A stretch of 64,000 bases of DNA, from the NCBI GenBank assembly GCA_047967505.1, contig CM106538.1. One strand, 5' to 3'. This document shows positions 2,301 through 41,579 of this stretch, piece by piece. How positions within the stretch are numbered: the first letter of the stretch is position 1; each line of letters starts with the position of its first letter. The notes beneath the pieces are model-generated. The model was not told the DNA's origin, did not search any database, and saw only the letters and a list, made by a program, of their open reading frames with translations. This DNA is from Dipteris shenzhenensis (lineage: Eukaryota). The translations under genes and the position numbers were made by a program.

Positions 2301-5266
2301 GCATAATATCATAAAAAAATAGCCGCTGCTCGCACTTCATTTCCTGAAGTTCCCATAGTACATCTCGATCGATAGGTTGTTGGGTTTGATTTGTATGATT
2401 GGGTGGACGTTTTTCATTTTTTTGTAGTACTCCATGTCATTGGCAAGATCACATTTTTATGTGGATGCCCCTGGTCATTCATCGTTGGCGACTGTTAAGT
2501 AGCTACTATCGTTGCTTGTTGTCACTCCAAGGTATGTGGCATCCGTTTGAAAATGCGCCTGCAGTGAGTCAATGCTCTCTTTGTTTTCTGTGTACATGTC
2601 CTTCCAGGTTTGGGTTGTTTCGTTCAATGTGTGTTCGTTAGAGTGGAATGGTAGGTAGAGCAGGCATAGTTCCCTGTAGTGGTTTTCGGGGTCTTTTATT
2701 TTGTTGTAGTTATTGAAACGTATTATTATTTCTTTTCTTCTTTTTTTAGTAGATCCTTGTTTCATGTTATATGCGCTTGCTAATGTGGCACATGTAATTC
2801 GTGGTGCCTCTTTAAATACTTTGTTACAATGTCATCAAAGAAGATGTCAGTGCTGTCTGGATGAAGTAACTCTAGTTGTGCACATCTTTCAGTAGCAATG
2901 CCCTGTCAGTCGGTGCGTTTGTGTTTATGTATGTGAATTCTTCGGAAGTGCTTGTTAGAGGCAATGAAAGGCAAAGGTACACTGCTTGTTGGGCATTGCT
3001 GTGTTGAGTATTTAGTATTGCATTTCCCACCTTGCGTACATGCTCACTAGGTGTTGCATTGTCTTGAAAGCTTTGAACGATTGCATTCTTAACTGCATTG
3101 TTTGTCTCTTTGTCAACTTTGGTTATGTATGACATGCCATACGATGCTGCACCATGAGGGTTTAAAACAAATTGTATGTCAGTGTTAGCACCCCATAGTT
3201 TGCTCAGCACCGGGTTAAAATTGTTTGTATAAATGTCTTTTGGTTCTCTTTTCATGAATATTTTCAGTTGAGAGATGCTGCTTCGTAGCGCCGTTTCATA
3301 TACTTGATCAAGGATATTGATCTTGTCAAGGAAAGAATCGAAAGTGAGCGTGGTGGATGTTTTATCTTGTAGTGCTTCTTTAACTTTCACATATTTTTTT
3401 TTTGTATGTATTGTTAGTATCTTCATCAAGTAAGTGTCTCAAAATTTTCTGTATAGTGCATCGATGGCTTCGGGAACCCAAAGTAGCAATGGGAATGTTT
3501 TTTCTTGCATGTTTGTCTAGTTGTGTGTTTGTATATAATTGAGCATGGGTTCGAGTTGTGCACTATCAATAGCTATGTGTTTGTCAATAAACTGTTCTAT
3601 GGTTTTGTCGTCAGTGTTGTTACCGTTGGGTCCTTCATCTACCCAGAGCGGGCCGTGGTCGTGTTGGCTCCCTCTGTTTTGGAATTCTGTTACATAAAAT
3701 ACTGTTGTCTTGTCATAATAATGTTTTGAGGGCTCTGAATTTGTGGACATAATGTTGTGTCGTAGTCACGGGCTGCTTTGATCACATTTGGATGTTCTTG
3801 CCTGCTTGTTCAACATTCTCTTCATTCGCGTGTTTGTTTATTTCCTGCAAACATCGTACTAGTGGCTCCCACCATTTCTCAACAGTAGATAATGTGATGA
3901 AGAATGTAGGAGGGCCAAGTTGTCTAATCATGGCGAAGACGTTTTGCTTCAGCCACTGTTGTTTCTAATCGGCGGACGTTCTTAAACAAGTGAAGTCACA
4001 GAAGCCAATTTTTGATTGCAACAATTGCTTAATATTTGTATCTCGTACTATTGTTTTTGCCTCGATGCTTTGCCCTTGTTTTTGCCCTTTTCACATGCGG
4101 ACCCAAACAGATGATAGCACTTGCCTTACCACACCTTCATTGTTTTGAAGAACAAGTTTTCGATGGACCATGCAAATCTCCTGTCCTCATTTCGAAGTTC
4201 CCACTTCACTATGTCCTAGTAGCTTGTTCGACTTGGAATGCGGTATGTGTGAGCTTTGCCATAAAAAAGAGTTGAGAATGCAAGTTCTTCGTAGTACTCG
4301 TCCTAGAAAAGGCTAAGAGGATGAAATCCTGTTAAAGGGCCGATGGTTGTTGGATTGATCTCGAAATCAATAACTTGGTGGCTTGTGTAAATTCCATGCA
4401 CGAAAGTATCGGTTGCGACGTCAAGAGAAACGGTGCACTTGTCCCTGTCTACTGATGTTTGCTGCATTTCCTCTTCTTCGCATTGTAGTTGCTGGATGTG
4501 TTCGGCCCAAAGTTTGTTGATCTTAACATAGTTCTTAATGTAGAGGGGGGTTGCAAGCAATTCTTGAAGCACACATTGTTATAGTGGGGCATACTAGGCT
4601 GCTGATGTAGTTATGATTGTAATGTAGTCGACGCTTGATTGCTACTGTCACTGTAGCAGAGTCGTTTATTAAGCGCGGGAGAACTTGTTGTGCTCTATCA
4701 ACGTGCGAAACCATTTATTACGCTACCGTCGAGCCCGAGCTGACCTTCATATGTTAATTGCCTTAATTGCGCGAAAGGTATTCTTATTAAAAATCAGTCG
4801 CTCCTCGATTTTGTTCAGATTAGATGTGTGTTCTTGGGGGGTGGTCAGGGCATGTTTCTCTTTGAGAACCTAGGTTCTTTGCCTGAACGGATTTGGCTGT
4901 AGCACAAGGAGCATGTAAGCACTTTGTTTTCGGTTTCTTGCGCTACATCATTCAGTTCTTCATTTATAGATGTTGAGTTGATGCTTTCTTTTTTCAATTT
5001 CGATCTAAATGTCAAACATCCACACGTGAAGCAAGCAAACGCCGATGTGTCATCTATCTTTTCAAGGTATATCGTCTTTGATTTTCGCATTCCTCTTTTC
5101 CATTTCAAGGAGTTGGCCTTGGTGGGGTCTTGAGTAGATTTTTCTTTAACTAGGTCTCCGCCGATATGAATTCCCAATACTTCCTCGCCTTGCACCAAGC
5201 ATGCCGCCTCATAGGCAATATTAGAATGGTACGCCGTGTCTTTCAGCTTGTATATTTTGTTGCATG

Positions 5267-5609
5267 TGTTGAGATATGGTGCCATGAGCACATAGATTAA
5301 AGGGCTAAGGTATGGTATAGGAAATAATTAAAGTAGCCACCCTAGGATGTGGACTACAAGATGTGAAGATGTGGATTGAGGATATCCACAAGGAGAGATG
5401 TGGATGAGAGGATCACACAAGTGTTGACTATTCAAAGGGCACTCTCTTTATAAGAGGCCTATCATGTATTGTTGTGTACACACACACATTGGAATAGATT
5501 GAGTATTGCCTACCGCATGTCTCACATGGAATTTCTTCTATGGTTTGATCCCCCTTGATCTTTTGCTAATTCCATGTTGCACTAGGAGAGCACGATCCTC
5601 ACTTTCTCA
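5267..5609 (+). repeat. 5' LTR (family B)
   Basis: Direct repeat of 7581-7923, followed by the PBS. Confidence 0.95.
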
Positions 5610-7580
5610 TGGTATCAGAGCTTAGGTCTAGTCTCCTAGGCATGCCTTAGGAACTCATGTTTTCTTCTAGATTAGTTTTAGAGAGATAGTGGTTACCCTT
5701 GTTTAGATTTTTGGAAAAGTATGAGAGAATGTGAGTCGTTCTTGAACAATCTCTTGTTGAGTGTTGTGAGCTCTCCCTCCAAGGGAGATCCCCAAGGACT
5801 CTAAATCAGCTCTTCTACAAGCAGGCTTTCGAACCTTCAAGGCTCCACACCTCAACTACGGCTACTCTGTGATGACAACTACAGTGCCATAGCTCCTATG
5901 CTAGTCACCTCCCAACCGAGCTCACGATAGCACCTCCCAAGCGGTTGTTGGCGTGCTGCTGGTGTCGATGCAGTAGTCGTAGCTGCAACAGTGATAGTTC
6001 TTCTTCTTCTTATGTTGTCGTCACCGTCGTGACGGCCACCATGTCTGGAGGTAGAAGCAACAAAGAAAACAGCCATCACCTCGTTCAGCAAGCCAGCAGT
6101 AATTAGGCTCCATAGCCCATTCGATGAGCGCATCCATCAATGGAACCATCGGCTCCCTCATGAGCCCTTCTTCAACGAGAAGGTAGCGCAGCTGCCGCTG
6201 CCAACGAGCACAAGGGTAGAGCAATGCAAGGACCTCACGATCTTCATACAAGCTAAGAAGCTGTGACTGCCAGAGATGCACCAAAATGCAATCAGAAGCA
6301 CCACGCTCAGGAGCAAAAGATGGGCAAACACCCTCTTCATTCTCTGAGAACACCTATGACTAGTTGCTGCTCCAAACAGTGCTACTTCAAGCAACAAGAA
6401 GGCTCAAACACCTCTGAGCGGCTCCTACGGCTTCAACAAGACAGCTCTCAATGCCATGGCTCCAACCGTTGACGACGAGCCAGCCTCTTGATATGAACAG
6501 CTGCTTCACAGCAACTCTAGCTCTGCTATATTGCAGACGAACTCATCGACCTCATCCAAAGAGCGGTCTACAGCAGCTCTGCCTCCTTTAGCGACTCGAG
6601 CTCTTAGTTCTCCTGCACATTGGCTGCTAAGTCGAGGCAGAAGCAAAGGATTTGCAAGCTCCTTCCGTGGAGCTGTGCCTGCAACCGCATCAGCAACCTA
6701 AATGAGAGCTCTAAGCTCTCCTCTTGTATGCGCAGCCAGCCTAGAAGCTCCGTCGTCGTCGTCGCCATCACGGTCAACAGCAGCTCCGTCGTCGCCTCAA
6801 ATCTTTTCTTTCTCCAAGGTTCCCTTAGATTGACACGTGGCATATAATAACTAACCAGGGTTTCTTTAGTTAAATAGGTAACTATGGTTAGGGTAGGATT
6901 AGTTAAGTGCCACCCAAGCACAGTCTCTTTGTAAGCACAGTTTGAATGCAGCATGTGAATCCCTGTGCCACATCATCAAGGCCCCCTCGTCTTCACAAAA
7001 GCTTCAACAAAGTGTAACTTCCAATCCAGGAAGAATTTGAACACGCTCCAAAAAGGAAAAGTGATCATCTTTTCGAGCTCTACGCGTCTATCAAGTCAGA
7101 ATCATTGTATGCAATTAGACACTGCCAATATTGAAAAAAATCAATTGGTAAGACCTTTGCAACAAATGAAAAAGCAACGCATGAATGCAGAAAGCATGCC
7201 AAAAGCACAAGTGCATGAGATGACCATAGCAGGAAGCATGGCATCCACACACAAAGCATCAAGGCACATGGAAGAACAAAGCATCATGCAGGTAGCTACA
7301 CCAAACAAAGAAGCAAATGAGTCGTCATCAAGCCATGAGCCAAAAGGTGACATCAATGAAATGTATTGAGAAACAAATACCTTGCCAACCTTGCCTATAT
7401 TTTGTAAATCAAACCTGACCACCTGAGAGTAGCTATGAAAGCACCCAGGGGAGGTATTGACATGTAAAAGCCACACTTGACTACCTTAAGTAGCAATGCA
7501 TGCACTAAGGGGAGGTGATGGAATGTAACTCACATCTGACCACCTTGCAGTAGCCAAAGGATCATGGCACCAAGGGGAGG

Positions 7581-7923
7581 TGTTGAGATATGGTGCCATG
7601 AGCACATAGATTAAAGGGCTAAGGTATGGTATAGGAAATAATTAAAGTAGCCACCCTAGGATGTGGACTACAAGATGTGAAGATGTGGATTGAGGATATC
7701 CACAAGGAGAGATGTGGATGAGAGGATCACACAAGTGTTGACTATTCAAAGGGCACTCTCTTTATAAGAGGCCTATCATGTATTGTTGTGTACACACACA
7801 CATTGGAATAGATTGAGTATTGCCTACCGCATGTCTCACATGGAATTTCTTCTATGGTTTGATCCCCCTTGATCTTTTGCTAATTCCATGTTGCACTAGG
7901 AGAGCACGATCCTCACTTTCTCA
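7581..7923 (+). repeat. 3' LTR (family B)
   Basis: Direct repeat of 5267-5609, preceded by the PPT. Confidence 0.95.
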
Positions 7924-21259: not shown

Positions 21260-22759
21260 AGCTACCAAACTACCATTGATTCTGCTAGGTCTGCCTTCCA
21301 CGATTTCATCTCCCATACTCCATTTGTTGATAGAGAGGAGGAGTTATTTCCAGTCTTTGATAAGAGCATAGATGTCCTGGGTACCTACTTGGGAGCTCGA
21401 GATGATTTTGAAGACCTCATCAAGTACATGCAAGACCACATCGTGAGTTTTGCATATCAACTTGATGAGTCTACAAAGAGATGGGTCCCAATTGATTATT
21501 TGAAGTACTTGTTCAATCAAGAACCTAGGTTCGTGAAGCATTTAGACCACTTTTGAGCCCAGCTCACACCCCTAGGCTTTAGGGAGGTGGACACTGATGA
21601 CCTCCTAGCATGCGGAGTCATCAGAAACACAAAAAATAGGTTCCTATCCTGGGAAATGACCTTTATTTTCCTTCTCTAGGAGGGGCAAATGGAAGAGGAG
21701 TCCTCGACCTCAAGCCTTGCCTCTGCCCCTCCCTTTTCAATCCTCTTATTTCTATAGATGAGCCCAACATCTACAATGAACAGCCCATAAATGAAGAAGC
21801 TGAGGAGTGGGAAGCTACATTGGCCCTAGAAGTGCTCCAATGACCTCCTGAACCCCATTCTACTTCTCAAATTCCATCCACCTCAAGCAGCACCTCTGTT
21901 GACCTTGCAACAGTGATATGGTTTCTTGCTCCCCTTCTTGTTGATGGAGAATAATACCTCTTTCTCCATGACATCGAGGTTGTGTTTGGTCTCTGGGAGG
22001 ATGAAGCTCTTGGTGTCCAGTGTGGATACAAGGTGGACATGACTATGCAAGAACCTAGGTTTTTGGAAGAAGATGATTCAATAGAAGAGGTTCTTGCTTT
22101 AACACTGGCCAAAATCAAAGATGCAGAGACATCAATCTACTCTGACTTACTTGATGTTCTAGAATAAGCCTCCATATCTCACTTCGGACAGCGAGGCCTC
22201 TAGATCCATCCTCATTGACAAAGAGAAAGGGATTGAGCATGATGACTCCATAGTGGTAAGAAACTATGAGCTTTGAATTTCTTCTCTCTTGGTATAATTT
22301 TGCTTTAACGGAATTCTAATGTAATGTTGTGGACTGTTGCAGGAGGCATTTGAGGTTGACCTATTCTGATCTCAGCAACGCCTTGTTTGCAGTAGCTTCG
22401 GATAAGATCACTCATTGGCACATTACCTTGGCCAAGCAAAAGGGTGCTTTGTGGTTATCCACAAAAAGTTTTCTCCACATGGCACTGATGACCTCTTGAA
22501 GTGCAAGGCCTTGTCATGAGTGATTGGTCATGCTAACATCAATCACAATGCTGACAAGGTCATTTTGGTGAACCGCATGGCTACCCTCAATGCTTTTGGA
22601 ACCAATTTTCAAGGTATGGCATTGACGGTAGCAACCATGTCCTTGGCTAGCAACGACAATAGTGTTGACTCTCTATCGACTAGGTTTAGAGCCAGGAGTG
22701 TATTTGGGAATTCAAAGCCCGATGTTCTCAATGTTTTAGAGAAGAGAGAAAGGCTCTGA
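21260..22759 (+). pseudogene. Unknown accessory ORF, acidic, with a probable intron at ~22256-22343; convergent with the H3-like gene
   Basis: Protein-like frames ..SAFHDFISHTPFVDREEELFPVFDKSIDVLGTYLGARDDFEDLIKYMQDH.., ..LFLHDIEVVFGLWEDEAL.. and ..DKVILVNRMATLNAFGTNF..; donor gtaaga and acceptor ttgcag. Confidence 0.4.
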
Positions 22760-22999
22760 AGCCTTATTGTATATAACTTTTATTTTATAACCACATTTGC
22801 CTTCTGCGCCACGGGAAAGAAACATCATTTGACCACTCAAATTCACACTGAACTTGCATAAACTAATGGAAAGCATCACGTAACATGTATAATAAGATGG
22901 GAACAGTAATAGAACATCAAAATATCTTTTATTCATTGGCCTCAAAGGGCAGATATTTACAAAATGATTCAAGTTACACCAAATGAACCTAAACAACAT

Positions 23000-24102
23000 C
23001 TAGGGCCTAAGGGAGGGATCGGAGCGAATGCACTTGGTGAGTGCAAGGTCCTTGTCCATCATTGTTACTCTTTTGGCATGGATAGCACATAAGTTTGCAT
23101 CTTCAAAAAGACCTACTGTCATCTGCTCCATTGCCTCCTAAATTGCTCCCATAGTGCCTGAAGTGAAACACACATCATCCTTGTAATGCTGTGCTATCTC
23201 ACGTACAACACGCTGGAAGGGCGCACGGGGAATGAGATTGTCCACAGTGGTTTGGAACTTTCGGATCTCTTGAAGTGCCTTCATGCCTGTTTTTTTGCGC
23301 CTCTTAATCTTCGGGGGACCGTGCACTGGCCTCTAGACATGGCCCCATGGCCGCTTGTCTTCTTTGAACTTCTTTCGCCTCTCCTCCCTTGCAACCACCT
23401 CTTCAGACTCCTCTTCCTGAGTCTGGTGGGTCCTTCAAGGTGGCTTGTCACGCCTAGGGGTCTTCTTTGTCCTTGGTCTCTTTTCCTTTTAATGAGGCTA
23501 GGAGACAACAGGTTGAGGCTCTTGCTCAGCTTGTACTAGAGGCTCCTCATATGTGACAATCTCAAGGCACAGAGGCTTGATGGTGCTCTTCGGTGTGGTC
23601 TACTTGGTTGGAGGATTGGGGCCAAGGTTCATTACATCTACGAGCCTGCCAAATACTTCCTCTTGTTGTGGCCCCTTTAATCTCTCCATCTCCTCTCTTT
23701 GCCTTTCTTGCTCCCCTTGTTGGTCCAGATGCTCCGTGCTAGGACCCTACGGAGGAGGGAGGGGTAGTTGATCACGATGGATTGGACTATTTTGTCCCTA
23801 TTGGGAGACTTCTCTACTTCCACGGTTAGTTGTGTGGAAGGACTGAGAGGACCCCTGATCGTGCTTGGATCCTTCATCATGCTGGGATTCCTCATGGTGC
23901 TGAGATCCCTGGGATCCCCCATGAGAATTGAATGGTGGGGATTCTGTTGCTGGGACTCCTGGTGATGAGAACCGCCTTCAGATCCCTACTGATCATTGCC
24001 CTCTTGGCCACTGGGGCTTGCAGTTTATGGAGTTGTTAGGAGGAGAGCGAGTAGCATCTAAATGGTGTCCAATGGGCCTGTAGTTTGTTTAACTCGTGCC
24101 AT
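23000..24102 (-). pseudogene. Histone H3-like gene with a ~260-aa inserted disordered tail (~365 codons in total)
   Basis: Starts MARVKQTT (ATG at 24102). One frame runs from ~23923 to the stop at 23000-23002, broken only by TAG/TAA/TGA codons, and ends [85 protein letters not shown], a complete H3 histone fold. Confidence 0.9.
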
Positions 24103-24355
24103 ATAAATGAGGGATTTTAGGATTTTGAAGTGCTTTATATAGTCTTTTTTAAAGCACTTTAGGGTTTCTCTTTTAAATTAGGGTTTTTTGAGTGCACCTC
24201 CCCCCCCGGTCTTTTGTCGCTAGTTCGATAATACTTAATCTTCACCACCCTCCCTCCCAACCCACTCACCCCTCCACCCTACCATGTCGCACATGCAATT
24301 TCCAAACAAATTTGTGAATTTTGGAATCTATAATTGACTCAAAATAGTGTTAAGT

Positions 24356-26360
24356 TTATTCATCAAACATTTTACATTGGGGTTCTCTTAGGACCCAACG
24401 CCTCCCCTGTCTGACTTTACATTGCAACCAAAGCACAACCCCTTGGCTCCCTATTGAGGATTTCCAAGTAGCACATCTCCTTGTCTTCTTGACATGTTGA
24501 ACCACTTTTGCGAGACTTGAGACCTCTACCTTATCGCGCTTGAGAGTCCTGGCCTCTAGACATCTATAAAACCAGTCGAACATTTTGTGTAGTGCATTGC
24601 TTCGTGTGATACCACCCCCATGCCTTGTATTCTTGAAGTATGTTGCCTTTGCTCTATAGTGTGATTTCTCCATTCCTTGAGTATTCCAAATGGACAGAGG
24701 GCCCCATTGCTCCACAAACCATGGTGCATGTGCGTAAAGAATATGCTGTAAAGAAAAACATCGTATTAGAAACATAAACTGACTCAAGTTTAAGGCACAA
24801 AATTTCAACCTGAGGATTACCATGTAATGTGTAATATGTGACTCCCCCCATGCTTCTACCATCAATGATATGAATTATCCCAATGCTGTCTTGAATCTCT
24901 CATAATAAAGCTCATCTATTTGACCTTGTCTAAGCAACTTTGTAAATGCATCAAGCTTTGTCTACAATTTTGCTCTCAAAGTAGCAATTCATGGATGTGA
25001 AGCTTAATTTGTGGTGCACTCACACAAAGCTTTCTAGTACTTGCTTTGAGCCAATGCATGTTTTTCTTTATCAGCATTATGGTTGGATAAGAACCTCCTT
25101 GCCTTTCCTCCACCCATGGACACTTTAGCAAGAAGATTTTGTGTCTTTCCTGATTGTTTCTTGTCTTGCTTAAGCTTCACATTGCCTCCGTGAAGTCCCA
25201 TTAGTGAGAGTAGTTCTTCAGCTTTTGCAATGCATTGTGCAGATACTTGCTGTGGCCTCAAATTCCAAGCATAAACTAGATGGAGATAGAGTAACTTATC
25301 AAGTATATGCAGTTCAGCATGCAAAGTACACATGTGTACCCGCTCCAATCGAATTAGTAGAATGGGGTCCCACTTAGGATCCTTTTTGTGACGATCAAGG
25401 GCTACACTTTGGTTGCAAGAAAGGATGCCATTTTCCCATTGTAGGCTTCCCTTTTGCATCTTCTAAGAGTGGGTTCAATACAAGCATGTCCATTTTGCAT
25501 CTGCACCTATATCACAACCATACAAGCACTTGAGGGTCTTCAAATCACCAACTAGATGCCATTCAACTTGAAACGTTCCATGCGCATCCACTATTAACAT
25601 TTGCCTTGCCTCTTGTCTTCAAATAATCGACGGAATGCTGATTCTCTCCAAAACCCACTTCAATGTCTCGTGGCACTCCTTTGGGGTCTCAAAGGCTACA
25701 AGCCACCATATGTCCTTCTCAGATTGGATCGAGAAACCCTGCTCAACTTCCTCATCCCCTTGAGCAAAACGCAAGGGTCGTTCATAATACAAATGCTCAC
25801 CCTCTCTAGCTTGTGCTCTTTTACCAACTGAGCTTCGTCCATTTTTATAACAAATACTAGCTTGCCATCTATACAATGAAAGAGAAATATAGTAAGGATA
25901 TAGAAATGAGAAGAAATAAAGTTGAATGCAAAGAGGGAATTTCTCTTACCTTCTTCTCTCATCCCATAGAATTTGACCATGGCTCTCTGCAAATTCTCTA
26001 CATCCACACAAACATTATTGAAAGCATTCATCTCAAACGTTTGGATGCCAGATTTCTATTTCAAGTCATTGTGCCACTTACACAATCATATCCTCCAAAC
26101 TTTTCCCTAGCACATTGGTTTGTTTCTTGACATGCAAGCCTTATAGACCACGGTGTTGGCAATGGCATTGTAGATATATACTTTTCCTCCATAGTAGACT
26201 TGAAAATTTTAAAAACAGAGTTGTAAGATTTACGACTTACACCAGCAGCATCACAAGCTCTAAGCACCTCCTTTGCTTGCACGAGGCCCTTGAAGTCCTT
26301 CATTACCTCTCTAGCAACTTGTTCACTAAATCCAAAAGGTAATTCTCTTCAATAAAAATT
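24356..26360 (-). pseudogene. RAG1-core/Transib-like DDE transposase, spliced (introns 25869-25949 and 24746-24820)
   Basis: Ordered motifs VFVIKMDE, QSE, ECHETL, HLVVDLK..LYG..WTCLY*, TLHAEL, SMGGGKARRFL and ITHYM|HILYAHAPWFVEQWGPLSIWNTQGMEKSH. Removing both GT-AG introns restores the frame and motifs. Confidence 0.8.
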
Positions 26361-26469
26361 CACCACTTAATTGATTGGAGAGAAGAACACAATCACACCA
26401 CAAAAATGACAACAGACTCTGTACAATCTCCCCCCCTAGATGAGTGGCTCATGCTTCCTCATCTAGAGT

Positions 26470-27072
26470 ATTTATGATATTTCATAAAAGCACCAAGGAG
26501 CCAAAATTATCCCTCTCTTCCAAAATGAGGGATTTGCTTTACATAGCCATCTTAGGGCCCAAAAATGAATTATGTCCACTACAAAATATATATTGCTCAA
26601 ACTTGCAATAATAAAGCAAATACAAAATTGGCCCATGGCCATATATAATGCACTGTGCGACACCTCGATCAGTACCCTTGCACCAACTCCAATCCTTGCT
26701 ATGAGTTCCATCACTTGTACTCAAGCTGCCAATTACATTAGTTATTAACAATCGATTGAACGAATCATCGAATCAACAGATCCCAACATAACCCAACATA
26801 ACCACGCTCAAAGCACAATAATCAAGCACAAAACCAATAACACTAACATCATGCACTGTATGAAAAGGACTCTTTTGGGTGGCAAGGTCTAAAGGATACA
26901 AGTTTCCATCCACCCAAAGGTCAAGATGCTTCTTCCCTTGCAATCGAAGACTATGGAGCACACTTTGAGGAGTTCCACTATATCCCAAACGGCATGTGCT
27001 TGCATATTCTACCTCCAGTTGTAGGTTCACATGGTACTTGTTGGATATGTCCTCGAATGGTGCCATACTCAA
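26470..27072 (-). pseudogene. Unknown ORF upstream of the RAG1-like core; may be its N-terminal exons
   Basis: ORFs 26773-27072 and 26539-26751 on the same strand, possible donor gttagt at ~26847; follows a pyrimidine-rich leader on the - strand. Confidence 0.35.
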
Positions 27073-27099
27073 AGAGAGGTATTAGTGATGCATGCTAAA

Positions 27100-27556
27100 A
27101 TGTAGGGGAGAGCTAGCAAAGATGGAGCAGTGAGAGGGAGAGAGTAGCAAGGAAGAGGGAGGAGGAGAAGCAGATGAGGGCAAGAGGAAAAGGAGGAGGA
27201 GAGTAGGGGGACCAGTGTAGAAGGGAGGGAAGGAGCTACTGTAGAAGGAGGAGGAGGGGAGAGGTGCTACAGGAGGGAGGAGGAAGGGAGAGATTCTACA
27301 GGAGGGAGGAGCAGAGGAGAGGGAGCCTGGGTAGGTAGAGAAGGAGGGGAGAGGAAGGAGGGAGGAGGAGCTAGAAGGAGGAGGAGGAGGGGAGAGGGAG
27401 GAGGGAGGAGGAGGAGCGAGATGGAGGAGGGGAGAGGAGGAGGGAGGGGGAGGGAGGGAGAGGGAGAGGGAGGAGGAGGGAGGGAGCGAGGGAGGGAGGA
27501 GGGGGAGGGAGAGGGAGGGAGGGAGGGAGAGAGAGGGAGGGAGGGAGGGAGGGAGA
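27100..27556. repeat. GGA/GGGA low-complexity tract
   Basis: Almost pure purine on the + strand. Confidence 0.9.
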
Positions 27557-29449
27557 TTCAAAATTTAAAACTCAAATATCAAAAACTGGCCCACTCCCCT
27601 CATTGGTGGGGGGAGAGGTGGGCTCAAATGTGGGCTTAACCCATCTAGGTTGGGCCCTTGCATTAGCCCACTAAGCATTCCCTAATCCATTCCTTATGAG
27701 GCCCTTTTAAGACCCCAATTCTCCCTAATGCTACATGAATGTGATGACTCTGAACTGTGGGCATTTGAAAAGTGAGTGCAAATAAACAAATGCTAAGGTG
27801 TAAGTAGGCACAGCGAAAGACCACAAGCTAAGAGCTACCAAAAGTAAGACGGGGCTTTCAAGGATGTGTATGAGTAGCTTGATCCTTTATAATGTTGATG
27901 GTGTTGGAGCAGCAATGGAAACATGATGGAGACATGAGAATATGAAAGAAGCTTATTCATTCATGAGATACATGGCCAATATAAAGGCAAGAGATACAAT
28001 GTACCTATGAGCTCAAGAGAACATCTAGATTGATAAATTTCTCCATGAATCTCTCAATCACATACCACACTCCTAGATTCACTCAATCACACCTACTAAC
28101 TGACACATCATCAATCACACCTATCTCAGGCAATGTACCTACACACACAAACACACTTGTTCACACACTCACTCATGTGATCACACTCACAATCATAGAC
28201 CTTGGTATTAATCCATTACATCAATTTGTTCCAACATACCCCCCCACAAATCGATGACCTCAACCCTAGCAGTAGTCCATGGGAGACTTCATGGCTTGCA
28301 CACCTCTAGTGAAACCACTCATGATCCCAACCTGGCACTCACTCTAGTTGCATCAGTAGCAGTAGACTCATTTCGACATCCTCACCCCAACATGATCTCA
28401 CTATGAATTTGGTCTCTTGTTTTACAATTGGGAGACTAAACAATGACTATGAATGGGAAATTCCCATAGGTCTGACAAGGTAAACTCAGACATAAGACTA
28501 AAAATCATTTAAGGGGGACATCCCAAGGCAAAGAACCCTTATTGACCACACAAAAATTCTAATATTTTGGAGATGTTGGGAAGATTCCCCCCTTGATAGC
28601 AGTCCTTTTCCAGTCTCATTTCCATGCTATCATTGTGTCTGGTCCACAAATGTATAATTATATATTCAATAGGGTGCATATTTAAACCACCATGTTGATG
28701 TAGTTGAAAGAGTCCAAGTTGATGTCCTGCCAATGCTTTGGAGAGGCTCTGAATGTGTAACATCTATTTCAGGTACATAACATTGGTACCCATTTTAAGA
28801 TTCTCTCAAAAATTCATTAAAATTATAATTAAAAGAAAAAAGCTATATTTTGCGGTCAAAAACTAAAAACTTACAGAATTCATACATTTTTCAAACATCA
28901 TGCCTATTAAATAAAAAGGGCCTCCACTATATCGCAAAATATCTTTTGGTGATTTGCACAATCCTTAATGTGAGTAGTATTAAGGCTTGTGTAAACTATC
29001 ATACCCATCGGAGATATACACATATGCTAGAAGCACATTGATGCATATTTCTTAATAGTCATGCATAATTTGTGTTAAGAAATTAAGAAATATACATGAT
29101 CAACCATGCAAATAATATTCGATGGATATGATACTTTGTAGAAGCCTTAATGTGAGTAAGATTAAGGCCCATGAAAAGTATAAATTGTAAAACATTTTAT
29201 CGATGCTTTTATTGATGACAAATATGGCAAAAAATCTCCCTGATGGCATGAGCAATATGCTTTTTTCATGGCCTTTGGACCGTCCTTACCAACAGCAACT
29301 TCTACTCCCCATCTTCTTCTTTTTTTAGGCACAAAAACAAGTTTGTTAATATTATGATCATCATATAATTTATACACATAAGTTCTTCGCCCAGGATTTC
29401 TCCTTATCAAAGCAAAAAAACAAACAAAATTTGATGCTGTTGACCTAGT

Positions 29450-32135
29450 TGTTAGAATTATTAATATATTCTAGGTAGTGGCCAATGTAATGTAATAAGT
29501 GAGTTAGGGGCACTTTTCCCTTTTAGAGGTTTTTCCCCCTAACCATAGTCTAATATCTAACTAAGGTTAGTGATTAGATAGGGTTTTGTCACTTAGATAA
29601 AACCCTTATCTCTTTCCTTGTACTCACACTTCAGTCACTTCAGTTTAGCACACTTTGGGAGTGAACTACGTTCAGCTTACTCTCCATCTTCCTCACTCTT
29701 GCTCTCTTGCTTTATCTCACATTTGGTATCAGAGCACTTCCTTCCCGGACCTGCTCCCTGCTCCTAGATTCTTGTTTCTAGCTCCTGCATTTCAACTCCA
29801 TCGCCAAGCTCCAGCTCCCATTCATTCGTATAGCTCCATCGTGACCATACAGTTCGTATAGTCTATACAATTGTATGGATTTTGTACCATGCCTGCTTCC
29901 ATTCATACACCTGTGCATTTCATTTGTACAGCCCCGTACGATTGTATGGATTTTCGTACATGTGCGTTAGTTCATTTGTATAGATTTTCGTACAGTTCGT
30001 TCGCACAAATTTCTGTACATTTAGCCCATACAGATTTTTGTACTATCAGGACACTTTGTCCGTATAGATGTCCGTACTGCTCATGTAGTTCATTCGTACA
30101 AGGTTCCATACAATTCTATACTTGCAGATTTATGTAGGCTGAAGGTGTTCGATGTCCCCGTCATTTGTTGACAAGTGTCATTTGCAGGCTCAGTTGTGCA
30201 ATCAACCATTGTTTGGCTTAGTTTTTGGGAGCACATTTGAAATTGTAGCAGGCATTGTAGTAGATCTGCAAGTTTTGGAGATTTTTTGGGGCTTTTGCAA
30301 TTGCATTACAATCTGGCAGTGAAATTTGGGGCTTTTGTAGGCAGAGTGCAATTTGAGCAACGTTTGGGCTTTCAGATCATTTGCCCTCTTTTGTATGCAA
30401 TTTCTCGTAAGAAATTGGGGCTTTTCAATTTGGGTTGCAATTTTGCAGGTAAAAGAGCATTTTGGAAGTTTGCAAGTAGTTCTAGACTCAGTTCGAGTCA
30501 ATTTGTAGACTTTTGCCACTTTTTGTAGATTCTATTTGCATATTTTTAGGCATTCAATAGAGCAATGAGGTGCCTTTTGAGCCTTTGATAGGCTGTGATA
30601 GTATTTGTCACTGTGGGTAGATTTTCTTTGTAGATTTTACTTGTCCATTTGACATCCTAGAAAGGGAATTTACTTGGTCAGTTTGTTGTGTTTTTTGAGT
30701 TTATTTGGCAAAAATGGCTTAGAACAACCCCAATGAGGTGTTTAGAGTTCTCACACATGAGGATAAGTTGGATGGCACCAACTACTCCTTGTGGAGTTTC
30801 ATAGTTCACAATATCTTGGTTGGTAGACATCTTTGGGATTATGTCAATGGAGATGAAGCAAGACCAGATACAGTGGCTACACTTGTCACTCCTATAGTTG
30901 GAGGCAGGGGTAGGGGTGCAAATGCAGCATAAGTAGTTGGAGCAGTCGCTCTAGGAGCTCCCACAGTAGAGCAGAAAAGATGGGACTCTAGAGATGCACA
31001 AGCTCTTTCAATGATTTCTCTCTCTATCAAGAGGTTCATTATACCTCACATTCGATCATGCAAGACATGTATGGTAGCTTGGGAGATACTAGAGAGTATG
31101 TTTATAGTAAGAAATGACTCCAAAGTTTCCTTTCTAAAGTGAGAGCCTTCCCATATGCATATGGATGAGGGAGATTTCCATGAATTCTCACCTCACAAAG
31201 CTTCACGACTTGTGGGAGCAGTTGTTGAATATTGATGGTCCCATTCCGGATTCAAAGATGATCACCACCACTCTGAATTCTCTTCTTGAGTCCTATCTTG
31301 GTTTCCACACCTCGCTGAATTTATCATTGAGGGGGGGCAACAATCCTCTCTTTTCATGAGTTGGTAGGACTTCTATTACAGGAGGAGCAGACTCGCAGAA
31401 ATATGGCATCCCAGGCTGGCAAGCATGCCATGCTTTCCAAGTTCAAGCCCAAGGGTAAAGGGCAGCAAAAGCCACATGCCAATTAGCCCACACATCAGCA
31501 TAAAGCTAATTCAAGACATCCCTCTTATAAGGCAAAGGCTGATGTAGATAAGCAAAAAAAGAAGGGCATTTGTCATTATTGCAAGAAGCCAGATAAAAGA
31601 AAAGGGATTCAGGTATGGCTATGTTAGATGCATCAGCTCCTCATTCTCATGATGGGGGAGATGTTGTAGCCAACTTTGTGGAAGAGCACTATGCCTTTCA
31701 ATCTTGCACTTCAGATTTTTCAGTGGGTAGTTCAGATGCTACAACCACTAATGATGATGACCCTTATGCTTTTTTGACTTGCAGCTATGATCCTTTAAAG
31801 GATGCATGCTCTCTCAGTGTCAATGAGACACTCAATACTTGTATTTTGATAGTAGTGCTTCAAAGCACATTACTTCCAAGAAGGGTCTTTTTGCATCTCT
31901 ACACCCACCACCTACCAAAAAGAAGGTGACTTGTGAAAATAATTCTTCTTATTCAGTGTATGGAGTGGGAGACATTATTCTCACATCGACTGATGGCACA
32001 TATTTCAGAATTTCAGATGTTCTCTATGTGCCAGGCATAAAGAAGAATTTGCTTTCAATGTCCTCACTCAATAGAGGAGGATTTCAGGTTGTTTTTGATG
32101 ATGATAAGTGTGCAGTTAGAGACAAAGAGAATTAC
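29450..32135 (+). mobile_element. Ty1/copia element (family A): 5' LTR, PBS, degraded gag and protease; 3'-truncated
   Basis: LTR ~29450-29721; PBS TGGTATCAGAGC 29724-29735; gag DKLDGTNYSLWSF..LWDYVNG; protease YFDSSASKHIT..DVLYVPGIKKNLLS. Confidence 0.85.
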
Positions 32136-33111
32136 TATGCTTCCATGGCACAATTTGTCAACAAAATCAAAAGCATTATGTCCCAACTAGAGGGCATAAA
32201 TGCAAAAGTAGGGGAGAAAGATGCACTTGCAATATCCTTAAAGCATGCCTACAGAGTATAGTGCATTGACAACCACTTTGAAGAATTTGCCAGATCCAAA
32301 GTTTGAAGAATGTGTATCCTCTCTTCTCAAAAAAGAAAGAGAGTTGAAAGCATCGACATCAACATCAACACGTAACGGCTATAATGAAGAACAAGCACTA
32401 TTCAGTAAAACATCAATGAAGTGCTACCATTGCAAAAGGATGGGTCACTATCAAAGTGACTGCAGATTGAAGAACAAACCAAAGTGTCACTATTGCAAGA
32501 AGCTGGGACACAAGGAAGAAGATTGCAGATTGAAGAACCAACAGGTCAACTACATGGAATTGTCATCAAGCCATGAGCCAAAAGGTAACATCAATGGAAT
32601 GTATTGAGAAACGAAAACCCTTGCCAACCTTGCCTATTTGTTTGTAATCAAACCTGACCACCTGAGAGTAGCTATGAAAGCACCCAGGGGAGGTATTGAC
32701 ATGTAAACCACACTTGACCACCTTAAGTAGCAATGCATGCACTAAGGGGAGGTGATGGAATGTAACTCTCATTTGACCACCTTGCAGTAGCCAAAGGATC
32801 ATGGCACCAAGGGGAGGTGTTGAGATATGGTGCCATGAGCACATAGATTAAAGGACTAAGGTATGGTATAAGAAAGAATTAAAGTAGCCACCCTAGGATG
32901 TGGACTACAAGATGTGGAGATGTGGATTGAGGATATCCACAAGGAGAGATGTGGATGAGAGGATCCCACATGGTTTGACTATTCTAAAGGTTTTCTCTAT
33001 ATAAGAAGCCTATCATGTATTGTTGAGAACACACATTGTAATAGATTGAGTGTTTGCTACCCTATGTCTCTCTTGTGGTGCTTTGATCCTCCTTGATCCC
33101 TCACTTTGTCA
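32136..33111 (+). mobile_element. 3' half of a gag-only (TR-GAG-like) family B element with its 3' LTR
   Basis: Copia-type gag C-terminus with two CCHC knuckles (CYHCKRMGHYQSDC, CHYCKKLGHKEEDC); 32563-32817 matches 7323-7580; LTR 32818-33111 is homologous to 5267-5609. Confidence 0.85.
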
Positions 33112-38229: not shown

Positions 38230-40420
38230 TCCAAACATAAAATGGGAATGTTCCATAGGGGCAAGAACTCTGCACAAAATTTTCCAAGACTTGTCGATGT
38301 TCACCGCCCTTCAAGTCTCTGCTCAATAAGTTTTTACAAGTCTTCTTGGATGACTTGTGTATCCATTCAGACAAGAAAGACCAATTACAATGCCTTGAGG
38401 TAGTTCTCATCAACAAATGCAGGGAGTATGGCATCTCCCTAAATTAGACAAAATGCCAGTTCATGGTCACCCACGGAATTGTTTTGGAACACATAGTCTC
38501 TCAATATGGAATTGCAACCGACATGGAAAAATCAAAATCATTATGGAATTACCACCTCCGCATAATTTGAAAGGAGTGCAGGTCTTTATGGGAGATGCCG
38601 GCTACTATAGAAGATTCATCTTGTGGTATGCCATGATAGCCCGCCCTATATACAAATTGTTGGTGGAATTATTTTGTACAAAGAAGTGTGACAAAGCCTT
38701 TGAGCTTCTAAAATGGTGCCTCATCACAGCACAATTCCTCATAGCTCCCAATCAAGAAATTGATTCTCATGTTCACAATGATGGCTCTAAGTATGCAATT
38801 GGGAGCGTACTATGACAACTTGGGGATCATAAGAAGGATTACTGAATTTACATTGCCAATCATCAACTCAATGATGCAGAAATCAACTACACAACCACCG
38901 AAACAAAAGCACTGGCAATGGTTTATAATGTCAAGAAATTTTGACACTATTTATTGGAAAATGATTTTGTATTCTACACCAACCATCAAGCATTGTTATA
39001 TCATGTGAATCATCTGTGTATGACAGGAAGGGTAACCAAGTGGCAAGAATTTGATTTCAAAATAGTGGTCTAAAAACATGCTCAAGACTACATTGATGAT
39101 CACTTGTCTCGCGTCAATTTTGTAGAAGAACCCACTCGAGTCAAAGATGACTTTTCAGATGCCACATTATTCCAAATCAAGGCTGTCCCGAAATGGTGTA
39201 CTGACATCATTGGATATATAATGATGGGAAAATCCCCACTAGATTTATGACGAACGGAAGCCCGCAAACTCATATAATCAAAGGTGCACCATATCAACTC
39301 ATAGCAGCCAATTATACAAAATAGGTAAAGATTAGATCCTGCATAGATGCATCATGCCAAATGAAATCCCACTTGTCATTTGCAAAGTGCATGAAGGCAT
39401 TGCAGGAAAATGCTTTGTTGGAGAAGCCACAGCTCAAAAAGGTCTTTTAGCTGGCTATTGGTGGCCCACAATATGGAATGATGCCTATGTGTTTGTGAAA
39501 AAATGTGATGTATGCCAACGAACTACCAAAACTCAACACAAAGACTTTAATCCCCGAACTACAGTCATGGCACAACACCCCTTTGAAAAATGGGGAATTG
39601 ACTTTCTAGGACCATACATCCTGCCGCTAAAGGAACACAAGCTTAGTACATCATTGTGGCAACATGTTATTTCATTAAATGGACTGAGGCATCAATATGC
39701 AAAGTAAATGCCAGAAGTACTTCCAAGTTCCTTTATGAAAATGTGATTGACACATGTTATGGTTGCCCATTGGAAATAGTCTCTGGACAAGGAACCCAAT
39801 TTGTCAAGTAATCCAAGAACTTCTCTCAGGACTCATGGTTATACACAAAAAGATAACTCCCTACTGTCCCCATGGGAATGGGCAAGAAGAATCTACCAAT
39901 AAAACCCTCTACATTATTGTCACAAAGGTAGTGGAACCCAAACGCTCTGACTGCTCGAAAAATCTTAGCTTTGCCTTATGGGCCTACAGAACCACTTTTA
40001 AGTCACCACAAGTTTTACACATTGAAAGTAGTATATGGTTTGAAGGCAGTATTCCCATTAGAATTCATTATCCCTAGTCTATGAGTGGTAGTACAATAGC
40101 TCCTCGGTGATAAAGAATACTTGGAAGCACGACTATTACACCTTGAGAAGCATACTGAAACAAGGTTAAGAGCCTACCATGCAATGACAATAGAAAAAAG
40201 ATGAAGGCATGTTTCGATAGAAATCTCAAATAAGGAGATTAATGAAGCTAACCTGGATTTTCTCTACAATGCCAAAGTCCACAAGGGCAAGTTAAACTGT
40301 CACCATATAAAGTTAAAACGATCAATCCCATTGGCACTGTGCTCCTCGAAACTTTGGATGGAGTGCAATTCAAATCAATGATCAATGGCAGTAGACTCGA
40401 GCGCTACTATGTCAACCTGC
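38230..40420 (+). mobile_element. Ty3/gypsy pol remnant (RT, RNase H, integrase)
   Basis: FMGDAGYYRRFI; HNDGSKYAIGSVL; NYTTTE..ALAMV; GYWWPTIWND..CDVCQR; PFEKWGIDFLGP; ALWAYRTTFK; INGSRLERYY. Confidence 0.92.
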
Positions 40421-41579
40421 AACTCATCCTTGACAACTCGCACCAACAAAATCAAAGAAATGGAAACCCCAAATCTCCCTTACTTAGGCCTACATTGTTA
40501 CACGCACACTCATTGATATATGTTCATGTTCGCACATATAGCTAGACCAATTTATTTCAAGCTAGGGCTCAAAGGTGATGACTAAGTCCTTGTTACCCTA
40601 TGAAATTCTAGCAAAATAAGCATATAGTTAGTCCCTACCTGGTTATTAGGTCCCATGCATTCACACACTTTTGCATAGGCACATAGTAGATTGCATCAGT
40701 AATTGTGCCACACACTTTCATTCCACACTCTCAAAGTATACGCTAAATTCACATCCCTCACACTACACACGCAACTGTCATACCTGCATACCAACTAATC
40801 TACCAATTTAATGACCAACACCCTATCCAAAGAAGATTCAATGAAAGAGTCCAAAGCCTCAGCCACCATGAGACATCACCAAAGTTTGTAGCCATTTACC
40901 TCCTCTCAATGCAGGCAACCACATGCATTTGTGGTTTGTGTGTTTGATTATTGTACATCATTGGGGTTAAGGAACAGTGGCCTATAACCGCCACAGAATC
41001 CACCCCACCCAACAACACAAGAAAACTCTTCACAGAGGCTAGCCTAGCTTGCTACCTCCAAATTGTTGGAGATGATGGAGAGGCCAAAGACCGTGCACAA
41101 ATGTAGGACTCAAAATCCCCCCCCCCCAACAACAGAGAAAACTCTACTCTAAAAACCCTTAGCCCTTCATCAATGTCTCCAGCAAATCCATAGAGCACAG
41201 CCATAAAGAGGCCAGCTGTGTGCATGCCATTCAAGATGGTGACATGGAGATGTGGGGAAGGTCGATGGAGATTATGAAGAAATTCCACAAGAGTAGGCAT
41301 TTCAAGTCCTAGTGAGTGCCATAGAATGACCTTGTATGAGAAAGCAGTCAAGATTGGGATCATGCTATCTCGAGGGGGGGTAGTAATGTTGGTTGTGTTT
41401 CCTATTGTAGTTCCTAGCATGTTACAAAGAGTGGGTGAGTAGTGGAATGGATGAGTAGATGAGAGCTTGAGGGAGAGTGGAGCAAGGTAATGACCAAGGG
41501 TGAGAGCTGGAGGAGGAAGCATGGAGCTAAGTAGCAGAGCAGGGGTAGATGAGAGCAAAGTAGCCAAACCATGTTCAGG

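What the first reader, a model, noticed from the sequence alone, without database searches (positions are those of the whole stretch)
23000..24102. H3-like protein keeps the K4 N-terminal epitope but replaces the K9/K27 region with a ~260-aa disordered spacer
The gene starts MARVKQTT, against canonical ARTKQTAR. R2, K4 and Q5 are kept, and T3 becomes a non-phosphorylatable V. No ARKS (K9 or K27) context is visible in the S/Q/H/E/K/R-rich spacer, which has at least one frameshift near its start. The fold has canonical loop-1 length with Q68 and F84 retained, which argues against CENH3, but it shows CENH3-like LIPRAPF and EDANL. Inference: a nucleosome containing this protein could take the active mark H3K4me but not the silencing marks H3K9me2 or H3K27me, which would suit a TE-encoded anti-silencing histone or decoy.
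Basis: partly seen in the sequence, partly recalled or inferred. Interest (0 to 1): 0.8.

Follow-up and report, generated by a model that had tools for sequence, protein, structure and literature searches.

The report
Dead histone H3 gene inside transposon
This is a broken copy of an unusual histone H3-like gene that sits inside a jumping-gene element whose cutting enzyme resembles the RAG1/Transib family, so it is a transposon-carried histone rather than a working host gene.

Summary
The H3-like gene is real (minus strand, 24102..23000; Pfam Histone 1.4e-29) but dead. It has 10 in-frame stops, one inside the fold. MARVKQTT lies in a different frame from the fold.

It lies between two genes of one mobile element. 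Upstream is a decayed ~860-aa ORF (27048..24356), whose intact relatives look like RAG1/Transib by language-model features and by two fold searches. Downstream is a convergent small ORF (22388..22759). In two metagenome relatives these two ORFs abut with no histone between them.

Contigs from other sequencing runs hold 90-97% alike pieces of the histone tail, the fold and the transposase.

The closest proteins are an unnamed multi-copy family (63-69%). An intact 335-aa protein has the same architecture: MARTKQTARPS, a long spacer, a shared pre-fold motif, then the fold.

Loop 1 has canonical length and Q68 is kept. The tree cannot exclude a CENH3 origin.

TE linkage is supported. The anti-silencing function is untested. 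I rate it a new variant of transposon-captured H3, interest 0.6.

The parts
23003..23332 (-). H3 histone-fold region (basic pre-fold stretch, alphaN to alpha3, and a C-terminal extension ending SDPSLRP). One in-frame TAG at 23138-23140; the true stop is at 23000-23002.
   Evidence: Pfam PF00125 at 103.3 bits, E 1.4e-29. Collinear with H3 rows without indels. 63-69% identity to the unnamed family P0121-P0125.
23333..24082 (-). Long polar, disordered-type spacer read in the fold frame, with 9 of the 10 in-frame stops. Holds the pre-fold motif EERRKKFKEDKRPW (about 23350-23400) and an 18-nt tandem repeat at 23849-23910.
   Evidence: tblastn of P0123 runs collinear up to 23566. Other copies read sense codons at 4 of the window's stops.
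24058..24102 (-). MARVKQTTGPLDTI plus stop: an H3-type N-terminus in a different frame from the fold, so there is at least one frameshift.
   Evidence: The motif is unique in the window and absent from 200 shuffles.
24134..24186 (-). Promoter-like stretch: TATATAAA at 24134-24141 and two AAACCCTAA motifs at 24159-24167 and 24178-24186.
   Evidence: Read. AAACCCTAA occurs 4 times in the window against 0.64 expected. The names TATA box and telo-box are recalled, not from a call.
22928..22933 (-). AATAAA, 67 nt downstream of the H3-like stop codon.
   Evidence: Read. Its function was not tested.
24356..27048 (-). Decayed ORF1 of the carrier element, a RAG1/Transib-like transposase. It spans 3 frames and has 9 stops in 24356-25780.
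   Evidence: Homologous to P0262 and P0263; stop count. Relatives resemble RAG1 by ESM features at 0.96, by Foldseek (top 43 rows) and by VIA-align (Z 10.0-8.4 against 5.6 for the next row).
22388..22759 (+). Remnant of the element's small convergent accessory ORF (ORF-S).
   Evidence: tblastn with the L002 ORF-S gives E 1.2e-6. An HMM built from the L001 and L002 ORF-S gives i-E 1.7e-9 at 22388-22666.
21889..22080 (+). Possible trace of the larger accessory ORF (ORF-L). Not significant.
   Evidence: HMM i-E 2 and no tblastn hit. Only its position upstream of ORF-S fits.

Best explanation
SHOWN
- The stretch is a dead copy of a histone H3-variant gene.
- The gene lies inside a DNA transposon whose large ORF is a RAG1/Transib-like transposase.
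- It sits downstream of the transposase on the same strand, between that gene and a convergent accessory ORF.
- It has TATA-like and AATAAA motifs of its own.

INFERRED
- An ancestor of this element lineage took up a host H3-type gene at the DNA level, together with its promoter. This happened at the junction of the convergent element genes.
- The gene then travelled and diverged with the element.
- Intact members would make a protein with three parts: an H3-type extreme N-terminus (A-R-V/T-K-Q-T), a long disordered spacer without ARKS contexts, and a complete H3 fold able to pair with H4 and enter nucleosomes.
- The family shares a motif just before the fold that canonical H3 lacks. Relatives as far as 46% identical keep the fold without indels. 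I therefore think the family is or was under selection as a chromatin protein (about 0.5-0.6), not pure junk.
- What it does for the element is unknown.

In this window both the histone gene and the transposase are pseudogenes, so nothing works here.
For: THE GENE
- The fold matches Pfam Histone at E 1.4e-29.
- Decay: 10 in-frame stops plus a frame change.
- Own signals: TATATAAA 32-39 nt before the ATG, two AAACCCTAA motifs, and AATAAA after the stop. A processed retrocopy would not normally bring a promoter.

THE CARRIER
- ORF1 at 27048..24356 is 45% identical to P0262 over 414 aa.
- ORF1 relatives resemble RAG1 by ESM features: 0.96, 203 of 256 features shared.
- The Foldseek top 43 rows are all RAG1, RAGL or HzTransib.
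- In VIA-align, the top 6 of 48,161 chains are the same proteins at Z 10.0-8.4; the next row is 5.6.

POSITION INSIDE THE ELEMENT
- In L001 and L002, ORF1 is followed directly by convergent ORF-S and ORF-L, with no histone.
- The window has ORF-S at 22388-22759 on the other side of the histone gene.

MULTI-COPY
- In run X1, 3 to 5 contigs overlap single positions of the tail.
- X1 and X5 contigs that are 90-97% alike cover the tail, the fold, the intergenic stretch 24150-24502 and ORF1.

CODING TAIL
- Four of the window's fold-frame stops are sense codons in other copies. None of the 20 listed differences creates a stop in that frame.

FAMILY
- There are 25 distinct unnamed proteins in 5 clusters, 63-69% identical to the window.
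- They form a clade with the window at 100/99 support.
- P0283 is intact at 335 aa: MARTKQTARPS, a spacer, the shared pre-fold motif and the fold. It is 46% identical over 146 aa, E 2e-33.
Against: - No single contig listed bridges ORF1 and the histone gene. The bin 24028-24168 with the ATG is almost uncovered, so linkage in other copies is inferred from similar depth and adjacency.
- No terminal inverted repeats or 5-bp target duplication were found. The element's ends are undefined.
- ORF1 gets no Pfam RAG1 hit and no PDB sequence hit.
- The fold model is weak (pLDDT 48.9).
- Whether the unnamed family and P0283 are TE-borne is unknown, because their contigs could not be fetched.
- Most family ORFs are short: 16 of 25 have 94 aa or fewer. 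That fits decayed copies.
- No dN/dS could be computed.
- Listed tail differences are 6 synonymous to 10 non-synonymous (stops excluded), which shows no clear constraint.
Confidence: 0.62

Rival explanations
1. Neutral passenger. An H3 or H3-variant gene was captured once by the element (transduplication) and amplified with it. It never served the element, as described for fungal hAT elements that carry H3-like sequence.
For: - Precedent in PMC6710886 (abstract and sections 6-7 read).
- This copy is dead.
- 16 of 25 family ORFs are truncated to 94 aa or fewer.
- Relatives L001 and L002 do without a histone.
- Listed tail differences show no excess of synonymous changes.
Against: - The fold is kept without indels at 31-54% amino-acid divergence among the window, the family and P0283.
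- A derived pre-fold motif is shared by all three.
- The tail frame is open in another copy where the window has stops.
- The gene has its own promoter-like and polyadenylation-like motifs.
Confidence: 0.25
2. The element-encoded H3 variant enters nucleosomes, can carry K4 methylation, and lacks K9 and K27 contexts. It thereby shields element chromatin from H3K9me2/H3K27me silencing, or acts as a decoy for the machinery.
For: - R2, K4, Q5 and T6 are kept in MARVKQT.
- No ARKS or RKS occurs in any frame.
- P0283 reads ARPS where H3 has ARKS.
- The H3-56 position is T in the window and M in the family.
- The gene is TE-borne.
Against: - Nothing was tested here: no expression, incorporation or modification data.
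- This copy is dead.
- MARVKQT is not shown in frame in any copy.
- P0286 keeps RKT after the N-terminus.
- The family ORFs P0244 and P0123 start at MEVLTFQ, without an H3 N-terminus.
Confidence: 0.1
3. An ordinary host CENH3 or H3-variant pseudogene or retrocopy that landed by chance inside one transposon copy.
For: - CenH3-like residues are present: A at H3-107, W at H3-84 in the family, and LIP.APF.
- The AU test does not reject a clade with CenH3-like rows (p 0.47).
- No contig was shown bridging the histone gene and ORF1 in other copies.
Against: - Loop 1 has canonical length and Q68 is kept, while all 6 CenH3-like rows have an insertion or lack Q.
- Promoter-like motifs are present and there is no poly(A) tract after AATAAA.
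- Several 90-97% alike copies of the tail and fold occur in the same small assemblies that hold ORF1 pieces, at similar depth.
- Only one copy of each gene is in the window, and they are adjacent.
Confidence: 0.05

Closest known systems
Histone H3-like sequences carried by hAT DNA transposons in Dothideomycete fungi (Pseudocercospora fijiensis; also Pyrenophora tritici-repentis). PMC6710886: abstract and sections 6-7 read. PMC3538342: search listing only.
   Same: An H3 gene sits inside a DNA transposon, is amplified with it, and is mostly inactivated in the copies.
   Different: - The carrier there is hAT, with 8-bp TSD and 20-bp TIR. Here the transposase is RAG1/Transib-like.
- The fungal copies derive from canonical H3 coding sequence, mostly its third exon, and were inactivated by RIP.
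- The gene here is a strongly diverged variant, 55-60% identical to H3 in the fold.
- It has a roughly 270-codon tail, a derived conserved motif, and promoter-like motifs of its own.
CENH3 / CenH3 (centromeric H3)
   Same: A divergent H3 with a long, fast-evolving N-terminal tail. It has A at H3-107, W at H3-84 in the relatives, and a LIP.APF-type alphaN end.
   Different: - Loop 1 is not lengthened and Q68 is kept.
- The gene is multi-copy and lies inside a transposon.
- The tree places it apart from the 6 CenH3-like rows, though without power.
Transib / RAG-like (RAGL) transposons (PMC1131882, passages read; PDB RAG1, BbRAGL and HzTransib chains)
   Same: - The core of ORF1 relatives has the RAG1/Transib fold.
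- Accessory genes are convergent to the transposase gene, as the abstract of PMC7204232 describes for RAG1L/RAG2L.
   Different: - There is no Pfam RAG1 hit.
- The candidate D-D-E spacing in P0262 is 97 and 295 residues. The second-D-to-E distance quoted in PMC1131882 is 206-214 for Transib and 253 for RAG1.
- No RSS-like TIR or 5-bp TSD was found.
- The accessory ORFs have no Pfam family.
- That 2005 paper states that plant genomes seemed free of recognizable Transib.
Unnamed long-tailed H3-like proteins P0283 (335 aa) and P0286 (210 aa), and the 140-aa proteins P0126 and P0261
   Same: - P0283 is intact and has MARTKQTARPS, a roughly 225-aa acidic spacer, the same pre-fold motif and the fold.
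- P0126 and P0261 begin MTRVNQ and carry LIPRAPFQRVVRE. They are 60-62% identical to the window fold.
- Holding the family together with these two rows gives a tree 2.3 lnL units better than the free search.
   Different: Their organisms and genomic context are unknown. P0283 is only 46-53% identical to the window.
VANC anti-silencing proteins of Arabidopsis VANDAL transposons (recalled, seen in no call)
   Same: This is a transposon-encoded protein that counteracts the silencing of its own element.
   Different: VANC is not a histone. Nothing here shows anti-silencing.

Membership tests
Histone H3 (Pfam PF00125 fold, H3 type) | Histone-fold domain collinear with H3 from alphaN to alpha3 | tested here: met
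   103.3 bits, E 1.4e-29. No indel against 6 canonical H3 rows.
Histone H3 (Pfam PF00125 fold, H3 type) | Open reading frame from the H3 N-terminus to the fold | tested here: not met
   10 in-frame stops, and the MARVKQTT start is in another frame.
Histone H3 (Pfam PF00125 fold, H3 type) | ARTKQTARKS-type tail with K9 and K27 ARKS contexts (feature recalled) | tested here: not met
   MARVKQT only. No ARKS or RKS in any minus frame.
CENH3 / CenH3 | Loop 1 longer than in H3 (criterion recalled from Malik and Henikoff) | tested here: not met
   The window and 6 family rows have canonical length. The 6 CenH3-like rows carry +1 to +10 residues.
CENH3 / CenH3 | Loss of Q68; F84 replaced, often by W; T107 replaced by A, C or S (criteria recalled) | tested here: inconclusive
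   Q is kept in the window and the family. Position 84 is F in the window and W in the family. Position 107 is A in both.
CENH3 / CenH3 | Groups with CenH3 in a tree | tested here: inconclusive
   The free tree separates them (CenH3-like rows 84/73). Holding them together costs only 1.18 lnL, p-AU 0.47. 95 columns were used.
CENH3 / CenH3 | Host gene whose product localises to centromeres | not testable with these tools
   No genome is held. The multi-copy, in-element position argues against it.
Transib / RAG1-like transposon (the carrier) | RAG1-type catalytic core | tested here: met
   - ESM features 0.96 to RAG1 clusters.
- The Foldseek top 43 rows are RAG1, RAGL or Transib; best E 5.8e-4.
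- VIA Z 10.0-8.4 against 5.6 for the next row.
- The model is weak (pLDDT 48.9).
Transib / RAG1-like transposon (the carrier) | Sequence-profile match to RAG1/Transib families | tested here: not met
   No Pfam RAG1 domain at E up to 10 in any of 5 members. No PDB sequence hit to RAG1.
Transib / RAG1-like transposon (the carrier) | 5-bp target-site duplication and RSS-like terminal inverted repeats (PMC1131882, passages) | tested here: inconclusive
   Heptamer and inverted-repeat scans of 20.5-31.5 kb gave no convincing pair. This is a single decayed copy.
Transposon-captured H3 (transduplication, as in fungal hAT elements) | H3-like gene located inside the element, between element genes | tested here: met
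   The order in the window is ORF1 (27048-24356), H3-like gene (24102-23000), ORF-S (22388-22759). In L001 and L002, ORF1 and ORF-S abut.
Transposon-captured H3 (transduplication, as in fungal hAT elements) | Amplified with the element | tested here: inconclusive
   Several 90-97% alike contigs cover both genes in runs X1 and X5. No bridging contig was listed.

The most novel reading that the evidence does not exclude
A lineage of RAG1/Transib-like DNA transposons in a plant-type genome encodes its own histone H3 variant. The variant has an H3K4-type N-terminus, a long spacer in place of the K9/K27 region, and a complete fold. The element would use it to build nucleosomes that cannot receive H3K9 or H3K27 methylation, and so resist silencing by the host.
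Probability: 0.1. Interest if true: 0.9.

Novelty: new variant of a known kind. Interest (0 to 1): 0.6.

Why it matters
Transposons that carry a histone H3 have so far been described, in the papers I could find, as accidental captures by fungal hAT elements.

This case differs in three ways:
- The carrier is a RAG1/Transib-like element in a genome with plant-type genes (an E-type PPR gene, copia, Helitron). A 2005 survey found no recognizable Transib in plants.
- The histone is a long-diverged variant with a conserved new motif.
- Its tail architecture also exists in an intact protein elsewhere.

If intact copies are expressed, this would be a mobile element that brings its own nucleosome subunit. 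That would make the question of how transposons escape chromatin silencing directly testable. If not, it is still a clear case of gene capture, and a lead to an undescribed group of RAG1-like elements with two convergent accessory genes.

Tried and rejected
NOT AVAILABLE
- No whole genome is held for the window.

ELEMENT ENDS
- A CACWRTG heptamer scan and an inverted-repeat scan gave only chance-level pairs.
- The CACAATG at 22544 lies inside ORF-S.
- A self-BLAST of the window found no long repeat flanking the locus.

ORF1 BY SEQUENCE
- Pfam gave only coiled-coil noise.
- PDB phmmer and a profile search gave no RAG1 hit.
- The first AF2 model, built from 2 sequences, was useless (pLDDT 34.8).

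ORF-L
- No significant hit in the window.

TAIL HOMOLOGUES
- None of the best 150 rows among 10,877 hits matches query residues before 166. None of the 120 rows matches the tail, apart from a low-complexity match (P0009).
- Tail-only hits below the listed rows cannot be excluded.

EXPRESSION
- No RNA holder is listed.
- Run X2 ('RNA?' is a guess) shows depth 297 only in bin 23041-23181, with loose ends at 23057 and 23116. That is about 60 nt of the most conserved H3 stretch, so it is most likely ordinary H3.
- The uncovered part 23910-24150 is reported as a gap only.

OTHER
- Names for relatives: none of the 14 clusters looked up carries a name.
- Literature searches found no paper on a Transib-borne or plant TE-borne H3. 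One search was badly framed and uninformative. One search failed because a term was too short.
- dN/dS was not computed because no DNA of the relatives could be fetched.
- Supplements of the papers were not seen.

Full report
**1. The observation**

- On the minus strand an ATG at 24100-24102 opens MARVKQTTGPLDTI, followed by a stop.
- The histone fold is read in a different frame, at 23332..23003, with the stop codon at 23000-23002.
- The fold matches Pfam Histone at 103 bits, E 1.4e-29.
- Reading the fold frame upstream to 24082 gives a 360-residue read-through with 10 in-frame stops. One of them (23138-23140) lies inside the fold, where H3 rows have Q.
- MARVKQT is not a chance string. It occurs once in six frames of the window and never in 200 shuffles.
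- The tail is 74% polar, charged, Pro or Gly, and has no ARKS or RKS in any minus frame.
- Part of the tail is an 18-nt tandem repeat.

**2. Signals around the gene**

- TATATAAA lies 32-39 nt before the ATG.
- Two AAACCCTAA motifs lie 57-84 nt before the ATG. The window holds 4 such motifs against 0.64 expected.
- AATAAA lies 67 nt after the stop, with no poly(A) tract after it.
- This looks like a complete transcription unit taken up as DNA, not a processed retrocopy. The motif names are recalled, and no function was tested.

**3. The neighbours**

- Directly upstream on the same strand (27048..24356) is a large decayed ORF, ORF1. It is homologous to two unnamed proteins: P0262 (857 aa; 45% over 414 aa) and P0263.
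- ORF1 is spread over three frames and has 9 stops in its last 475 codons.
- Pfam and PDB sequence searches say nothing about ORF1.
- Three other approaches agree that it is RAG1/Transib-like:
  - Language-model features of P0262 residues 330-800 score 0.96 against RAG1 clusters.
  - With an AF2 model of the core of the L001 relative (6-row alignment, pLDDT 48.9), Foldseek's first 43 rows are all RAG1, amphioxus RAGL or Helicoverpa Transib.
  - An all-against-representatives VIA-align search puts the same proteins in the top 6 of 48,161 chains. They score Z 10.0 to 8.4 over 250-310 residues; the next row scores 5.6.
- The model is weak. I therefore call ORF1 RAG1/Transib-like in fold, not a proven member.

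**4. The gene is inside the element**

- A scan of metagenome contigs with the ORF1 alignment found 5 loci.
- L001 has an intact 840-aa ORF1. In both L001 and L002, ORF1 is followed immediately by two convergent ORFs: ORF-S (138-163 aa) and ORF-L (374-399 aa). The two loci share these ORFs.
- Neither locus holds an H3-like gene in its ~2.1-2.2 kb downstream of ORF1.
- The window has an ORF-S remnant on the plus strand at 22388-22759 (tblastn E 1.2e-6; HMM i-E 1.7e-9).
- The order in the window is therefore: ORF-S forward, then the H3-like gene and ORF1 on the reverse strand. The histone gene fills the gap where ORF1 and ORF-S abut in the relatives.
- This is the signature of a lineage-specific capture into the element.
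- I could not find the element's ends.

**5. Other copies**

- Only contigs could be laid on the window, from four runs with coded names.
- In X1, a very small assembly, and in X5, contigs 90-97% alike cover the fold, the tail (for example 23565-23909 with 19 differences), the intergenic stretch (24150-24502) and ORF1.
- Three to five X1 contigs overlap single tail positions.
- Of 20 listed differences between 23420 and 23880, four turn one of the window's fold-frame stops into a sense codon. None creates a stop in that frame. In the MARVKQT frame, one difference does create a stop.
- All three of the window's fold-frame stops inside 23565-23909 are sense in that one X1 contig.
- So at least that part of the spacer was coding in frame with the fold, and is not an intron.
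- The bin that holds the ATG is almost uncovered. No listed contig bridges the two genes. Both points stay open.

**6. Relatives of the histone**

- The nearest proteins are an unnamed family of 25 distinct sequences in 5 clusters on short contigs. They are 63-69% identical to the window.
- They share with the window the pre-fold motif (EERRKKFK.DKRPW type) and a C-terminal extension.
- Two 188-189-aa members run collinear with the window up to 23566.
- Sixteen of the 25 are 94 aa or shorter, as expected if many copies are broken.
- A search without a word index added P0283. It is an intact 335-aa protein that begins MARTKQTARPS. It has a roughly 225-aa acidic spacer, the same pre-fold motif and the fold. 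It is 46% identical over 146 aa, E 2e-33.
- P0286 (210 aa) is similar.
- P0126 and P0261 (140 aa) begin MTRVNQ and share LIPRAPFQRVVRE.
- Canonical H3 rows are 55-60% identical to the window fold. The six CenH3-like rows are 46-54% identical.

**7. H3 or CENH3?**

- In the alignment, the window and its family have canonical loop-1 length and keep Q at H3-68.
- All six CenH3-like rows lack one or both of those features.
- Position 107 is A, and position 84 is W in the family, which are CenH3-like states. These criteria are recalled, not from a call.
- The ML tree (34 rows, 95 columns) joins the window to the family at 100/99 support, on a long stem. That clade sits in an unresolved polytomy with H3.
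- Forcing the family together with the CenH3-like rows costs 1.18 lnL (p-AU 0.47).
- Forcing it together with P0126 and P0261 gives a better likelihood than the free search.
- The donor gene is therefore unresolved.

**8. Mechanism**

*Shown:* the gene is a dead, transposon-resident H3-variant gene.

*Inferred:*
- Intact members encode a nucleosomal H3 variant.
- The fold is preserved without indels at up to 54% divergence.
- A derived motif is conserved across the window, the family and P0283.
- The tail frame is kept open in at least one other copy.
- I give about 0.5-0.6 to past or present selection on the protein.
- I give about 0.25 to a neutral passenger, as described for fungal hAT elements (PMC6710886).
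It fits the missing K9/K27 contexts, but no data supports it.

**9. Novelty**

- My searches found transposon-carried H3 only in fungi with hAT carriers.
- Kapitonov and Jurka 2005 (passages read) state that plant genomes seemed free of recognizable Transib.
- Five later papers mention both Transib and Viridiplantae once each. I saw only the search listing for these.
- I rate this a new variant of a known kind.

Noticed in passing
L001:479-4950 and L002:589-4821; window 21889-27048: RAG1/Transib-like ORF1 relatives are followed by two convergent ORFs with no Pfam family. ORF-S is 138-163 aa and ORF-L is 374-399 aa. The two loci share this order at only about 33% ORF1 identity. The layout recalls convergent RAG1L/RAG2L. 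I did not test whether ORF-L is RAG2-like.
   Followed up: partly
window 27082-27640: A CT/GA-rich low-complexity block, giving long open frames on both strands, sits directly 5' of the decayed ORF1.
   Followed up: no
window 1123-3438 (-): Pieces of a Helitron-type helicase ORF. The Pfam PIF1 hit is at 1630-2172, E 4e-14.
   Followed up: no
window 48007-53406: A Ty1/copia element with 347-bp LTRs that are 95% alike (48007-48352 and 53060-53406). It carries RT and integrase ORFs at 49298-51306 (-).
   Followed up: partly
window 58469-60985 (-): An uninterrupted 838-aa pentatricopeptide-repeat ORF with an E motif. It is the only clearly intact host-type gene seen, and it points to a land-plant-type genome.
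   Followed up: no
window 5266-5609 vs 7580-7923; 7324-7837 vs 32562-33070; 40228-40484 vs 62858-63114: Dispersed direct repeats: 344 nt at 100% identity, 516 nt at 92%, and 257 nt at 94%. They were not classified.
   Followed up: no
window 31827-32261 (+), 38399-38815 (+): Further retroelement fragments. Pfam gives a Pol beta-barrel domain at E 1e-21 and RT_RNaseH_2 at E 5e-6.
   Followed up: no
P0126 / P0261 (140 aa, unnamed): These short H3-like proteins begin MTRVNQ and carry LIPRAPFQRVVRE. They share the R-V at positions 2-3 with the window's MARVKQT, so they are possible relatives of the donor gene.
   Followed up: partly
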